Source: the human T2T-CHM13v2.0 reference genome, Homo sapiens. Taken from it: DNA of 64,000 bases. How positions within the stretch are numbered: position 1 is the first letter of the stretch; the number at the start of each line of letters is the position of its first letter. The stretch spans positions 42,720,001 to 42,784,000 of the forward strand of contig CP068257.2 in NCBI GenBank assembly GCA_009914755.4, given 5' to 3'. The notes under the pieces are model-generated. The model saw nothing but the letters and a program-made list of their open reading frames with translations, did no database searches and had not been told where the DNA came from. Below are positions 41,221-44,210 of the stretch, in pieces. The position numbers and the translations under genes were made by a program.

Positions 41221-44210
41221 CTCCCTTCCTCCCTCCTTCCCTACCTCCTTCCCTTTCCTCCCCTCCCCCCTCCCTCCCTCCCTCCTCACTCCCTTCCTCC
41301 CTCCCTCCCTTCCTCCCTCCCTCCCTCCCTCCCTCCCTCCCTCCCTTCCTCCCTTCCTCCCTCCCTCCCTCCCTTCCTCCCTCCCTCCCTCCCTTCCTCC
41401 CTCCCTTCCTCCCTCCCTCCCTTCCTCCCTCCCTCCCTCCCTTCCTCCCTCCCTCCCTCCCTCCCTCCCTCCCTTCCTCCCTCCCTCCCTCCCTCCCTTC
41501 CTCCCTCCCTCCCTTCCTCCCTTCCTCCTCCCTCCTTTCCTCCCTCCCTTCCTTCCTCCCTCCCTCCCTTCCTTCCTCCCTCCCTCCCTCCCTTCCTTCC
41601 TCCCTCCCTCCCTCCCTTCCTCCCTCCCTCCCTCCCTCCCTTCCTCCCTCCCTTCCTCCCTCCCTCCCTCCCTTCCTCCCTCCCTCCCTCCCTCCCTCCC
41701 TCCCTCCCTTCCTCCCTCCCTCCCTTCCTCCCTCCCTTCCTCCCTCCCTCCCTCCCTTCCTCCCTCCCTCCCTTCCTCCCTCCCTCCCTTCCTCCCTTCC
41801 TCCTCCCTCCTTTCTTCCCTCCCTCCCTCCCTCCCTTCCTTCCTCCCTCCCTCCCTCCCTTCCTTCCTCCCTCCCTCCCTCCCTCCCTCCTTTCCTTCCT
41901 CCCTTCCTCCCTCCCTACTTTCCTCCCTCCCTCCCTCCCTCCCTCCCTTCCTCCCTCCTTTCCTTCCTCCCTTCCTCCCTCCCTCCTTTCCTTCCTCCCT
42001 TCCTCCCTCCCTCCTTTCCTCCCTCCCTCCCTCCTCCCTTCCTCCCTCCCTCCCTCCTCCCTCCCTTCCTCCCCTCCCTTCCTCCTCCCTCCCTTCCTCC
42101 CTCCCTCCCTTCCTCCCTCCCTCCCTCCTTCCTCCCTCCCTCCCTCCCTCCCTTCCTCCCTCCCTCCCTCCCTCCCTCCCTTCCTCCCTCCCTCCGTCCC
42201 TCCCTCCCTCCCTCCCTCCCTCCCTCCTCCTCCCTCCCTCCCTCCCTCCCTTCCTCCCTCCCTCCCTTCCTCCCTCCCTCCCTCCCTCCCTCCCTCCTCC
42301 CTCCCTCTCCTCCCTCCCTTCCTCCTCCCCCTCCTCCTCCCTCCCTTCCTCCCTCCCTCCTCCCTCCTCCTCCTCCCTCCCTCCCTTCCCTCCCTCCCTC
42401 CCTCCCTCCTTCCTCCCTCCCTTCCTCCTCCCTCCCTCCCTCCCTCCCTCCCTCCTCCCTCCCTCTCCTCCCTCCCTCCCTCCCTTCCCTCCCTCCCTCC
42501 CTCCCTTCCTCCCTCCCTCCCTCCCTCCCTCCCTTCCTCCCTCCCTCCCTCCCTTCCTCCCTCCCTCCCTCCCTTCCTCCTCCCTCCTCCCTCCCTCCCT
42601 CCCTTCCTCCCTCCCTCCCTCCCTTCCCTCCCTCCCTCCTCCCTCCCTCCCTTCCTCCCTCCCTCCCTCCCTTCCTCCTCCCTCCCTCCCTTCCTCCCTC
42701 CCTCCCTCCCTCCCTCCCTTCCTCCCTCCCTTCCTCCCTCCCTCCCTCCCTCCCTCCTCCCTTCCTCCCTTCCTCCCTCCCTCCCTTCCTCCTTCCTCCC
42801 TCCCTCCCTCCCTCCCTCCCTTCCTCCCTCCCTCCCTCCCTCCCTCCCTCTCCTTCCCTCCTCCCTCCCTCCCTCCCTCCTCCCTCCTCCTCCCTCCTCC
42901 CTCCCTCCCTCCTCCCTCCCTCCCTCCCTCCCTCCCTCCTCCTCCCTCCCTCCTCTCCTCCCTCCCTCCTCCTCCTCCCTCCTCCTCCCTCCTCCTCCCT
43001 TCCTCCCTCCCTCCCTCCCTTCCTCCCTCCCTTCCTCCCTCCCTCCCTCCTCCTCCCTCCTCCCTTCCTCCCTCCCTCCTCCCTCCCTCCTCCTTCCTCC
43101 CTCCCTCCCTCCCTCCCTCCTCCCTCCCTCCTTCCTCCCTTCCTCCCTCCCTTCCCTCCCTCCCTCCCTCCTCCCTCCCTCCCTCCTCCCTCCCTTCCTC
43201 CCTCCCTCCCTCCCTCCTCCCTCCCTTCCTCCCTCCCTCCCTTCCTCCCTCCTCCCTCCCTCCCTTCCTCCCTCCCTCCCTCCCTCCCTCCCTTCCTCCC
43301 TTCCTCCCTCCCTCCTTCCTCCTCCCTCCCTCCCTCCCTCCCTTCCTTCCTCCCTCCCTCCCTCCCTCCTTCCTCCTCCTTCCTCCCTCCCTCCTTTCCT
43401 CCCTCCCTCCCTCCTCCTTCCTTCCTCCCTCCCTCCCTCCCTCCCTCCCTCCCTCCTCTCCCTCCCTCCCTCCCTTCCTCCCTCCCTTCCTCCTCCCTCC
43501 CTCCCTCCCTCCCTCCTTTCCTCCCTCCCTCCCTCCCTTCCTCCCTCCCTCCCTCCCTCCCTCCCTTCCTCCCTCCCTCCCTCCCTCCCTTCCTCCTCCC
43601 TCCCTCCCTCCCTCCCTCCCTTCCTCCCTCCCTCCCTTCCTCCCTCCCTCCCTCCCTCCCTTCCTCCCTCCCTCCTTCCTCCCTCCTTCCTCCCTCCCTC
43701 CCTCCCTTCCTCCCTCCCTCCCTCCCTTCCTCCCTCCCTCCCTTCCTTCCTCCCTCCCTCCCTCCCTCCCTCCCTTCCTCCCTTCCTCCCTCCCTCCCTC
43801 CCTTCCTCCCTCCCTCCTTCCTCCCTCCCTCCTCCCTTCCTCCCTCCCTCCTTCCTCCCTCCCTCCTCCCTCCCTCCCTCCCTCCTTCCTCCCTCCCTCC
43901 CTCCCTTCCTTCCTCCCTCCCTCCCTCCCTTCCTCCCTCCCTCCCTTCCTTCCTCCCTCCTCCCTCCCTCCCTCCCTCCCTCCCTTCCTCCCTCCCTCCC
44001 TCCCTTCCTCCCTCCCTCCCTCCCTCCCTCCCTCCTCCCTTCCTCCCTCCCTCCCTCCCTCCCTCCCTTCCTCCCTCCCTCCCTCCCTTCCTCCCTCCCT
44101 TCCTTCCTCCCTCCTTTCCTCCCTCCCTCCCTTCCTCCCTCCCTCCCTTCCTCCCTCCCTCCCTCCCTTCCTCCCTCCCTCCCTTCCTCCCTTCCTCCCT
44201 TCCTTCCTTC
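41221..44210. repeat. ~3.0 kb polypyrimidine (CCCT/CCTT/TCC)n tract on the sense strand
   Basis: Continuous ccctccctccctcccttcctccctcc... with essentially no purines on the + strand for ~3 kb. Confidence 0.95.

What the first reader, a model, noticed from the sequence alone, without database searches (positions are those of the whole stretch)
41221..44210. ~3 kb uninterrupted polypyrimidine tract in the intron between the S5 and pore exons
The + (sense) strand is essentially pure C/T for ~3 kb, built from (CCCT)n, (CCTT)n and TCC units. Tracts of this purity and length are rare. They are known elsewhere (e.g. the PKD1 intron 21 polypyrimidine tract) to adopt H-DNA/triplex structures, stall polymerases and be length-polymorphic. 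Here it sits 340 bp downstream of the exon encoding S5, abuts an Alu at its 3' end, and is the largest single feature of the window. It would be transcribed into a 3-kb CU-rich pre-mRNA segment, a possible PTB/hnRNP sponge.
Basis: seen in the sequence. Interest (0 to 1): 0.6.

Follow-up and report, generated by a model that had tools for sequence, protein, structure and literature searches.

The report
Overgrown Alu tail in TRPM2 intron
The 3-kb pure C/T stretch is real, but it is most likely the hugely expanded tail of an old Alu element inside an intron of the human TRPM2 gene. It belongs to a known kind of unstable repeat, is absent from the other vertebrates I could compare, and shows no sign of a conserved function.

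Summary
Window 41218-44211 (2,994 nt) is 99.87% pyrimidine on the + strand, with 4 purines and a longest pure run of 2,015 nt. It is a degenerate period-4 microsatellite of 764 units: TCCC 514, TTCC 132, TCC 89. The gene is human TRPM2. The tract starts 368 nt into a 10,090-nt intron. The upstream exon encodes S5, the pore helix and the filter region; the downstream exon encodes the rest of the pore loop and S6.

The flanking Alu is on the minus strand, and the tract sits where its poly(A) tail should be. Read on that strand the tract is (GGGA/GGAA/GGA)n. A non-human orthologous contig shows the empty site, and a decayed target-site duplication brackets tract plus Alu. Orthologous introns in three other vertebrate contigs are far smaller or lack the tract.

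The Alu body carries about 5-6% transversions; the tract carries 0.13%. So the array is recent or continually homogenised.

The triplex idea is plausible, and there are also 110 G-quadruplex motifs on the template strand. The PTB-sponge idea is weak: UCUU occurs once and CUCUCU never, against 526 CCCU.

The closest analogues are the RFC1/CANVAS Alu-tail expansion and the PKD1 intron 21 tract. This is a new member of a known kind, of modest interest.

The parts
40680..40851 (+). TRPM2 exon (172 nt) encoding residues 931-988: S5, pore helix and filter region (FGQIP). Acceptor CCTGCAG|ATG, donor CG|GTAGGA.
   Evidence: The 58-aa translation matches human TRPM2 chains 6mix/6puo/7vq2 over its full length (E about 4e-34); identity in all 58 positions is shown in the printed 7vq2_A alignment. 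Pore residues E960, Q981 and D987 fall in this exon (PMC2562080).
40852..50941 (+). Host intron, 10,090 nt. It contains the tract, at least four minus-strand Alus and a 41-bp minisatellite.
41207..41219 (+). GAAATAATTCATT: putative decayed left copy of the Alu target-site duplication (or a remnant of the distal tail). It is absent from the empty site in L001.
   Evidence: 8 of 13 positions match the right copy. The probability of 8 or more matches over all window 13-mers is 0.005. The L001 alignment shows GATG|GAGAGAAC with nothing in between.
41220..44211 (-). Expanded Alu-tail microsatellite, read on the minus strand as (GGGA)514, (GGAA)132, (GGA)89 plus minor AnGm units. On the + (TRPM2 sense) strand it is the polypyrimidine tract.
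44212..44476 (-). Alu element, AluJ-like and about 14-17% diverged, with an internal deletion in the right arm. Its 5' end is at 44476. Its 3' end, with an A6 remnant (T6 at 44213-44218 on the + strand), abuts the tract.
   Evidence: Rfam Metazoa_SRP hit at 44365-44476 on the minus strand, E 2e-6. There are 26 Alu-family matches in the window.
44478..44490 (+). GAGAGAACACTTT: right copy of the target-site duplication. It ends in a T-run, as expected for L1-endonuclease-mediated insertion.
   Evidence: It is homologous to the single-copy GAGAGAACCCTCTTTT in L001 and matches the left copy at 8 of 13 positions.
50942..51125 (+). Next TRPM2 exon (184 nt): VNFNPEHC...LLNLLIAMF, the outer pore loop and S6.
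   Evidence: It is conserved in L006 and L007.

Best explanation
The tract is a lineage-specific, hyper-expanded, degenerate AnGm microsatellite. It grew out of the poly(A) tail of an old Alu that inserted in antisense orientation into this TRPM2 intron.

Shown:
- The Alu is on the minus strand, and the tract lies exactly between its 3' end and the flanking target site.
- An unoccupied orthologous site exists in another mammal-like contig.
- The orthologous introns of other vertebrate contigs are small and lack the tract.
- The tract has about 40-fold fewer transversions per site than the Alu body.

Inferred:
- A-to-G changes in the A-tail produced GGAA and GGGA units. Replication slippage then expanded these to about 764 units.
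- Slippage still homogenises the array, so it is probably length-polymorphic.
- The tract is most likely a tolerated, near-neutral by-product with no selected role.
- Its physical consequences would be those of G-rich homopurine/homopyrimidine repeats. These are H-r triplex and G-quadruplex formation on the purine strand, which here is the TRPM2 template strand, with orientation-dependent polymerase stalling and fragility.
- The pre-mRNA would carry 3 kb of completely unpaired C-rich RNA, which would bind poly(C)-binding proteins rather than PTB.
For: Anatomy:
- Rfam places the Alu left monomer at 44365-44476 on the minus strand.
- Read in the Alu's 5'-to-3' direction, the body ends ...CCCTGTCAAAAAAT and is followed by GGAAGGAAGGAAGGGAGG....
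- Other Alus in the window end in A-rich, (AG)n or (AAAC)n tails at the same position.

Empty site:
- L001 aligns to window 41098-41208 and again from 45295. The interval is about 409 bp in L001 and 4,087 bp in human.
- L001 reads GATG|GAGAGAACCCTCTTTT. Human reads GATG + GAAATAATTCATT + tract + Alu + A + GAGAGAACACTTTT.
- The two putative duplication copies match at 8 of 13 positions, P about 0.005.

Lineage specificity:
- The whole orthologous intron is about 440 bp in L006 and about 1,015 bp in L007. L035 also lacks the tract. The longest purine or pyrimidine run in any of these loci is 22 nt or less.

Youth or turnover:
- The Alu body has 13-16 transversions in about 263 aligned sites (4.9-6.1%). 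The tract has 4 in 2,994 (0.13%). At the Alu's rate about 147-183 would be expected.
- There is no higher-order repeat beyond what shuffling the units gives, which fits unit-level slippage.

Structure potential:
- 110 G-quadruplex motifs lie on the minus strand, against 33 in the other 61 kb on both strands.
- 91% of the tract is covered by mirror repeats.
- The sense RNA folds with an energy of 0 and no base pairs.

Precedent:
- The RFC1 AAGGG expansion lies in an AluSx3 tail, with CCCTT in the host intron (PMC6612533; PMC11373605).
- (A2G3)n forms an H-r triplex and G-quadruplexes, and stalls polymerases when the purine strand is the template (PMC11077069).
- Long mirror repeats arise by short-tandem-repeat expansion (PMC12214015).
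Against: - The target-site duplication is decayed (8 of 13), so on its own it is only suggestive.
- No primate orthologue could be retrieved. The order of events (Alu first, expansion later) and the timing are therefore inferred, not observed.
- The species of the comparison contigs are unknown.
- A CT-rich seed, (CTCC)3, lies 10 bp upstream of the insertion point in L001. A local pyrimidine-rich context therefore pre-existed.
- Neutrality is argued only from absence in other lineages. A primate-specific function is not excluded.
- No structural, CLIP or population data could be examined.
Confidence: 0.75

Rival explanations
1. The tract is a selected cis-regulatory element of primate TRPM2. 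It could act as a 3-kb protein-binding platform on the pre-mRNA (for PTB, PCBP or hnRNP K). Alternatively it could act as a triplex or G-quadruplex brake on RNA polymerase II that tunes elongation, splicing of the pore exons or premature termination.
For: - It lies 368 nt downstream of a 5' splice site, between two exons that are essential for the pore.
- It has 526 CCCU motifs in fully unpaired RNA.
- It has 356 GGGAGGG motifs and 110 G-quadruplex motifs on the template strand.
- PCBPs are known to bind C-rich polypyrimidine tracts and affect splicing (PMC4797308).
- Its extreme purity could in principle reflect constraint.
Against: - It is absent from every non-human orthologous intron retrieved. 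Two of these are only about 0.44 and 1.0 kb long in total, so the channel is spliced normally without it.
- Optimal PTB motifs are essentially missing.
- The purity is explained more simply by slippage turnover.
- According to its abstract, comparable CCCTT expansions in RFC1 do not alter RFC1 splicing in neurons (PMC11373605, abstract as listed).
- No paper linking TRPM2 to such an element was found.
Confidence: 0.1
2. The tract arose independently of the Alu, from a local CT-rich seed. The Alu then either landed next to a pre-existing polypyrimidine tract or is merely adjacent to it.
For: - L001 has CTCCCTCCCTCCCT about 10 bp upstream of the insertion point.
- Elsewhere in the window, an Alu at 15437-15716 appears to sit inside a pre-existing (GATA)n array, because GATA repeats lie on both sides of it. 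Alus can therefore land in microsatellites.
Against: - The human counterpart of that seed (CTTCCTTCTTCTCT, 41190-41203) is still present and unexpanded. It is separated from the tract by GATGGAAATAATTCATT.
- There is no tract sequence on the far side of the Alu.
- The purine strand of the tract continues the Alu sense strand directly from the A6 remnant.
- The sequence next to the Alu's tail would have to serve as a target-site duplication, but it does not match the right flank.
Confidence: 0.08
3. The tract, or its length, is an assembly or sequencing artefact of a low-complexity region.
For: Homopurine/homopyrimidine repeats are hard to clone and sequence. A 2026 preprint title reports long-read sequencing bias against simple satellites that form triplexes (bioRxiv 10.64898/2026.07.13.738322, listed; not read).
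Against: - The array has an irregular, non-periodic pattern of unit variants and four unique purine interruptions. It does not look like a collapsed or artificially repeated block.
- Both junctions join cleanly to sequence that is orthologous to other species or belongs to the Alu.
Confidence: 0.04

Closest known systems
RFC1 intron 2 (AAGGG)n / CCCTT expansion in the AluSx3 poly(A) tail (CANVAS)
   Same: - It is an antisense Alu in an intron whose tail has become a G-rich AnGm repeat, so the host pre-mRNA carries the C-rich pyrimidine strand.
- It is kilobase scale: pathogenic alleles have about 400-2,000 units (PMC11667243).
- It is both an H-motif and a G3-run array. The (A2G3)n repeat forms an H-r triplex or G-quadruplexes and stalls polymerases when the purine strand is the template.
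   Different: - The unit here is mainly the tetranucleotide GGGA, mixed with GGAA and GGA, rather than a pure pentanucleotide.
- The expanded state here is the allele present in the sequence given, not a rare non-reference disease allele.
- The Alu here is older and AluJ-like.
- No disease link is known.
PKD1 intron 21 polypyrimidine tract (PyRE, 2.5 kb)
   Same: - It is a kilobase-scale sense-strand polypyrimidine tract inside an intron.
- It is a cluster of many short H-DNA mirror repeats (23 perfect and 4 imperfect). [quoted passage not shown]
   Different: - The TRPM2 tract is longer (3.0 kb) and purer (99.87% pyrimidine).
- It is a true period-4 microsatellite. The PKD1 tract is described as 'not a strict tandem repeat'.
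- It has an identifiable Alu-tail origin.
- No instability or structural data exist for it.
FXN intron 1 (GAA)n within an Alu
   Same: It is an intronic homopurine/homopyrimidine mirror repeat that arose inside an Alu and expands by replication errors.
   Different: - The FXN repeat arose in the central A-rich linker of the Alu, not the 3' tail.
- It is A-rich, with no G3 runs and so no G-quadruplexes.
- Its expansion silences the host gene.
TAF1 intron 32 SVA (CCCTCT)n hexamer (X-linked dystonia-parkinsonism)
   Same: It is a retrotransposon-borne C/T-only repeat in an intron, listed among H-motif repeat disorders.
   Different: - It has tens of units, not hundreds.
- It is part of an SVA 5' end rather than an Alu tail.
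C-rich polypyrimidine tracts bound by PCBP1/2 (alphaCP)
   Same: These are C-rich, U-poor pyrimidine RNA of the kind PCBPs recognise (PMC4797308).
   Different: - Those tracts are short and sit immediately upstream of 3' splice sites.
- This one is 3 kb long and lies 6.7 kb from the authentic acceptor.
- Binding here is untested.

Membership tests
Alu poly(A)-tail-derived microsatellite | The repeat directly continues the 3' end of an Alu, with its A/G-rich strand on the Alu sense strand. | tested here: met
   The Alu is on the minus strand. Read 5' to 3' it ends ...GTCAAAAAAT and is followed by GGAAGGAAGGAAGGGAGG....
Alu poly(A)-tail-derived microsatellite | The repeat lies inside the element's target-site duplication. 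| tested here: inconclusive
   GAAATAATTCATT (41207-41219) matches GAGAGAACACTTT (44478-44490) at 8 of 13 positions, P about 0.005. This fits a decayed duplication around an old Alu but is not decisive alone.
Alu poly(A)-tail-derived microsatellite | An orthologous empty site in a lineage without the Alu lacks the repeat. | tested here: met
   L001 reads GATG|GAGAGAAC with neither Alu nor tract. L006, L007 and L035 also lack it.
Alu poly(A)-tail-derived microsatellite | Intermediate states (an ordinary A-rich tail or a short AnGm repeat) occur in related primates. | not testable with these tools
   No primate sequence could be retrieved.
H-DNA-forming motif (homopurine/homopyrimidine mirror repeat) | Strand-pure homopurine/homopyrimidine composition. 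| tested here: met
   2,990 of 2,994 bases on the + strand are pyrimidines.
H-DNA-forming motif (homopurine/homopyrimidine mirror repeat) | Mirror symmetry with arms of at least 10 nt and a short spacer. | tested here: met
   There are 973 overlapping perfect mirror repeats with arms of 10-30 nt and spacers of 8 nt or less, covering 91% of the tract. This is no more than the composition itself gives.
H-DNA-forming motif (homopurine/homopyrimidine mirror repeat) | A triplex actually forms (S1 nuclease or chemical probing, S1-END-seq). | not testable with these tools
   This needs experiment or public S1-END-seq or permanganate data.
G-quadruplex-forming sequence | At least four G3+ runs separated by loops of 1-7 nt. 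| tested here: met
   There are 110 non-overlapping motifs on the minus strand, 68 of them (GGGA)3GGG. ViennaRNA with its G-quadruplex term folds a 300-nt piece only as G-quadruplexes.
G-quadruplex-forming sequence | Folding in K+ in vitro, or a G4-seq or BG4 signal. | not testable with these tools
   No such data are available here.
PTB (PTBP1) binding platform or 'sponge' | A high density of UCUU, UUCU or CUCUCU motifs. | tested here: not met
   UCUU occurs once, UUCU once, and CUCUCU and UCUCU never in 2,994 nt.
PTB (PTBP1) binding platform or 'sponge' | CLIP occupancy over the tract. | not testable with these tools
   No CLIP data are available here.
Poly(C)-binding protein (PCBP1/2, hnRNP K) target | Repeated single-stranded C-triplets (CCCU/UCCC). 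| tested here: met
   There are 526 CCCU and 526 UCCC motifs. The RNA is fully unpaired. That these proteins recognise such motifs comes from established knowledge and from PMC4797308.
Poly(C)-binding protein (PCBP1/2, hnRNP K) target | Demonstrated binding by CLIP or in vitro assay. | not testable with these tools
   No data are available here.

The most novel reading that the evidence does not exclude
The normal human TRPM2 allele carries a CANVAS-sized G-rich Alu-tail expansion. Its length might vary between people and act as a cis 'rheostat': longer alleles would form more triplex or G-quadruplex structure on the template strand. That could slow RNA polymerase II just after the exon encoding the filter region, and so change TRPM2 dosage or produce truncated, pore-less isoforms. 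It could also create a fragile site at 21q22.3. If so, the tract would be a hidden structural variant behind TRPM2-linked traits.
Probability: 0.06. Interest if true: 0.65.

Novelty: new member of a known kind. Interest (0 to 1): 0.3.

Why it matters
If the reading is right, this is one of the largest and purest homopurine/homopyrimidine tracts inside a human gene, longer and purer than the much-studied PKD1 intron 21 tract. It is also a natural, apparently tolerated counterpart of the RFC1/CANVAS Alu-tail expansion. It would show that a 3-kb G-rich Alu-tail repeat, with its purine strand as the transcription template, can sit 368 nt from a splice donor of an essential exon without disabling the gene. 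That is relevant to the debate on whether such repeats cause disease through loss of host-gene function.

Practically, the tract is a likely source of length polymorphism, of drop-outs in sequencing and PCR, and of replication stress in TRPM2. No paper addressing it was found in the library searched.

It does not reveal a new mechanism.

Tried and rejected
- Human or primate copies of the locus. The human ORF spanning the exon, tried with four alternative starts, is not in the protein collection. The 14 homologous ORFs found are all non-human, at 80-95% identity.
- Junction scans. A 19-mer from the left junction was scanned in metagenome and GTDB genome contigs. It gave only chance bacterial hits, with no homology beyond 21-24 nt and no purine or pyrimidine run longer than 20 nt.
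- Higher-order repeat structure. The longest exact internal repeat is 69 nt. Shuffling the units gives a mean of 54 and a maximum of 67. Autocorrelation shows only the period of 4. So there is no evidence of large internal duplications.
- Exceptional mirror symmetry. The longest perfect arm is 30 nt, no better than unit shuffles (mean 33). The tract is a cluster of short H-motifs, not one giant one. For scale, the longest perfect H-motif reported in the T2T genome has 797-bp arms (PMC11879447).
- PRDM9 hotspot motif (6 matches) and EWS-FLI-type (GGAA)n runs of 4 or more units (none; one run of 3). Neither is notable.
- Species of the comparison contigs. Recalled SINE signature sequences gave no hits.
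- Literature. No paper links TRPM2 with polypyrimidine, H-DNA or VNTR features of this intron. Bacolla et al. 2006, on long homopurine/homopyrimidine tracts, is not held. The review of TRPM2-AS gives no coordinates, so I could not establish whether antisense transcription crosses the tract.
- Alu exonisation. The first AG after the tract (TTCCATTTTTTGACAG|G, 44222-44223) resembles the classic antisense-Alu acceptor, but the donors within this Alu are weak (for example CAT|GTGCAC). This remains untested speculation.
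Full report
**1. Is it there?**

Yes. Window 41218-44211 (2,994 nt) contains C 2060, T 930, A 3 and G 1 on the + strand. The four purines are A41243, A41288, A41917 and G42196. The longest uninterrupted pyrimidine run is 2,015 nt (42197-44211). The longest purine or pyrimidine run anywhere else in the 64-kb window is 28 nt.

Tandem Repeats Finder calls one array at 41220-44208, with period 4, 762 copies and 86% matches. It is the longest tandem array in a window that is rich in minisatellites.

Parsed as T-run plus C-run units, the tract has 764 units:

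| + strand unit | Count | Share of bases | Minus strand |
|---|---|---|---|
| TCCC | 514 | 69% | GGGA |
| TTCC | 132 | 18% | GGAA |
| TCC | 89 | 9% | GGA |
| rarer variants | – | rest | GGAAA, GGGAA and others |

There is no higher-order periodicity. The longest exact internal repeat (69 nt) is about what shuffling the units gives, which is a mean of 54 and a maximum of 67.

**2. Where is it?**

The upstream exon (40680-40851) translates to MKDVFFF...FGQIPGYIDG. This matches residues 931-988 of human TRPM2 in PDB entries 6mix, 6puo and 7vq2 over its full length, with identity at all 58 positions in the printed 7vq2_A alignment.

The next exon (50942-51125) encodes VNFNPEHC...LLNLLIAMF. The intron is 10,090 nt. 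The tract starts 368 nt after the donor and ends 6,730 nt before the acceptor.

Residues E960, Q981 and D987 are experimentally defined pore residues. [quoted passage not shown] All three are in the upstream exon. The intron therefore splits the pore loop after the filter region; it does not separate 'S5' from 'pore' exons.

**3. What is it?**

Rfam's SRP model matches 44365-44476 on the minus strand. The element aligns over its whole length with 25 other Alu matches in the window. It also aligns with a window-derived consensus and with AluJo and AluSx consensus sequences recalled from memory. It resembles AluJ slightly more, and is 14-17% diverged.

Read 5' to 3', the Alu ends ...CCCTGTCAAAAAAT and runs straight into GGAAGGAAGGAAGGGAGGAAGGGAGG.... 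The tract therefore occupies the position of the Alu's poly(A) tail. Other Alus in the window carry A-rich, (AG)n or (AAAC)n tails at that position.

A contig from another, unidentified mammal-like genome (L001) supplies the empty site. It was reached through an ORF that covers the orthologous exon.
- L001 aligns with window 41098-41208 and resumes at window 45295. It spans about 409 bp where human has 4,087 bp.
- L001 reads ...CCCTAGATG|GAGAGAACCCTCTTTTGG....
- Human reads GATG, then GAAATAATTCATT, the tract, the Alu, an A, and then GAGAGAACACTTTT.

The 13-mers on either side match at 8 of 13 positions. Only 0.5% of all window 13-mers match as well. The right-hand copy ends in a T-run next to where the tail would have been primed, which fits L1-endonuclease target-primed insertion (established knowledge). 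I read these 13-mers as a decayed target-site duplication that encloses Alu plus tract.

A CT-rich seed, (CTCC)3, lies 10 bp upstream in L001. Its human counterpart (41190-41203) is unexpanded and is separated from the tract, so it is not the tract's source.

**4. Lineage and age**

In L006 the entire orthologous intron is about 440 bp, and in L007 about 1,015 bp. L035 also lacks the tract. No purine or pyrimidine run in any of these loci exceeds 22 nt. The tract is therefore not needed to splice these exons in vertebrates generally.

The Alu body has 13-16 transversions in about 263 aligned sites (4.9-6.1%). The tract has 4 purines in 2,994 sites (0.13%). At the Alu's rate about 147-183 would be expected. 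So most of the array is far younger than the Alu, or slippage continually purges interruptions. Either way the array is dynamic, and it is likely, though untested, to be length-polymorphic. All four interruptions lie in the third of the tract farthest from the Alu. The 2,015 nt next to the Alu are perfectly pure.

**5. How it most likely works**

Origin (inferred, with strong precedent). A-to-G changes in an A-tail generate AnGm units, which expand by replication slippage. The RFC1/CANVAS repeat is exactly such a case. There, (AAAAG)11 at the 3' end of AluSx3 is replaced by (AAGGG)exp, and the complementary CCCTT lies in RFC1 intron 2 (PMC6612533; PMC11373605). In that system expansion propensity rises with G content (PMC11077069). 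Genome-wide, long mirror repeats are explained by short-tandem-repeat expansion (PMC12214015).

Physical behaviour (inferred from sequence and precedent):
- 91% of the tract lies in perfect mirror repeats with arms of 10-30 nt. [quoted passage not shown]
- The minus strand has 110 canonical G-quadruplex motifs, including 68 copies of (GGGA)3GGG. The remaining 61 kb has 33 on both strands.
- G-rich (A2G3)n forms an H-r triplex or G-quadruplexes depending on the ions present. It stalls polymerases and replication forks only when the purine strand is the template. PKD1 tract fragments behave the same way (PMC9142560).
- In TRPM2 the purine strand is the transcription template.

RNA. The sense transcript of the tract cannot base-pair at all; its folding energy is 0. 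It has 526 CCCU motifs but only one UCUU and no CUCUCU. The PTB-sponge idea is therefore poorly supported. Poly(C)-binding proteins are the more plausible binders (PMC4797308, plus established knowledge of KH-domain C-triplet recognition). Binding is untested.

Function. My best reading is that there is no selected function. The tract is lineage-specific. A comparable intronic CCCTT expansion in RFC1 is reported in that paper's abstract not to alter RFC1 splicing in neurons (PMC11373605, abstract as listed).

**6. Comparison and novelty**

The tract works like the RFC1 Alu-tail expansion and the PKD1 polypyrimidine tract, and it meets their sequence-level criteria. Structure formation, protein binding and polymorphism could not be tested.

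It differs in four ways. It is mainly tetranucleotide. It is mixed rather than pure in unit type. It is longer and purer than the PKD1 tract. And it is the allele present in the sequence supplied rather than a rare disease allele.

I found no paper that describes it. It is a new member of a known kind.

**7. Verdict**

Triplex potential and adjacency to an Alu are right. The link to the Alu tail and the G-quadruplex potential were missed. The PTB reading is weak, and the exon labelling is imprecise.
- Interest is modest at 0.3. This is a striking but explicable repeat. Its main value is as a natural 'tolerated CANVAS-like' allele and as a probable hidden structural polymorphism in TRPM2.

Noticed in passing
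window 46508-48149: A 41-bp minisatellite of about 41 copies at 89% identity lies in the same TRPM2 intron, 2.3 kb downstream of the tract. It is probably a VNTR.
   Followed up: no
window 29451-31052: A G-rich minisatellite (GTGGAGGGGT)n of about 164 copies, with higher-order periods of 39 and 49. It is 1.6 kb long and G-rich on the + (sense, non-template) strand. That is the opposite strand polarity to the tract.
   Followed up: no
window 53769-54907: A 40-bp VNTR of about 29 copies at 93% identity ends only about 70 nt upstream of the acceptor (around 54976) of the exon encoding YTFQQVQEHTDQIWKFQRHDL..., the TRP-helix region.
   Followed up: partly
window 56567-57157 and 59468-60650: Two long degenerate (GTGATG/GGTGAT)n arrays, 0.6 and 1.2 kb, lie in downstream introns. 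A related 21/90-bp GATAGTGAT-type array lies at 38713-39174.
   Followed up: no
window 15400-16177: A plus-strand Alu at about 15437-15716 has an A16 tail that is followed by a 435-bp (GATA/GATG)n array. GATA repeats also occur just upstream of the Alu (15400-15436), so this Alu may have inserted into a pre-existing microsatellite. That contrasts with the TRPM2 tract, which lies on one side only.
   Followed up: partly
window 44503-44527: A T25 run lies immediately right of the Alu flank. The orthologous position in L001 has only TTTTTT within an old shared repeat, which looks like an L1 3' end from memory. So this mononucleotide run also expanded in the human lineage.
   Followed up: partly
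L001 7522-7535 vs window 41190-41203: The non-human contig has CTCCCTCCCTCCCT where human has CTTCCTTCTTCTCT. This is a short CCCT-type seed just upstream of the insertion point, and it did not expand in either lineage.
   Followed up: yes
window 44222-44223: The tract plus the T6 remnant is followed by GACAG|G, the classic antisense-Alu cryptic 3' splice-site configuration, now preceded by a 3-kb pyrimidine tract. The candidate donors inside this Alu look weak. I could not check whether an Alu exon is ever used.
   Followed up: partly
window 45111-45162, 45823-45874, 50408-50459, 45747-45806: There are sub-threshold Rfam matches to mir-1268, mir-3135 and mir-1285. All lie within the same spans as the minus-strand Alu (Metazoa_SRP) matches, so they are most likely Alu-derived similarity rather than microRNA genes.
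   Followed up: no
window 3553-3853, 5013-5414, 10689-10889, 26711-26982: There are further minisatellites in the upstream part of the window: 60 bp x5, 36 bp x11, 78 bp x2.6 and 34 bp x8. The whole window is unusually dense in tandem repeats, as expected for distal 21q22.3 (from memory).
   Followed up: no
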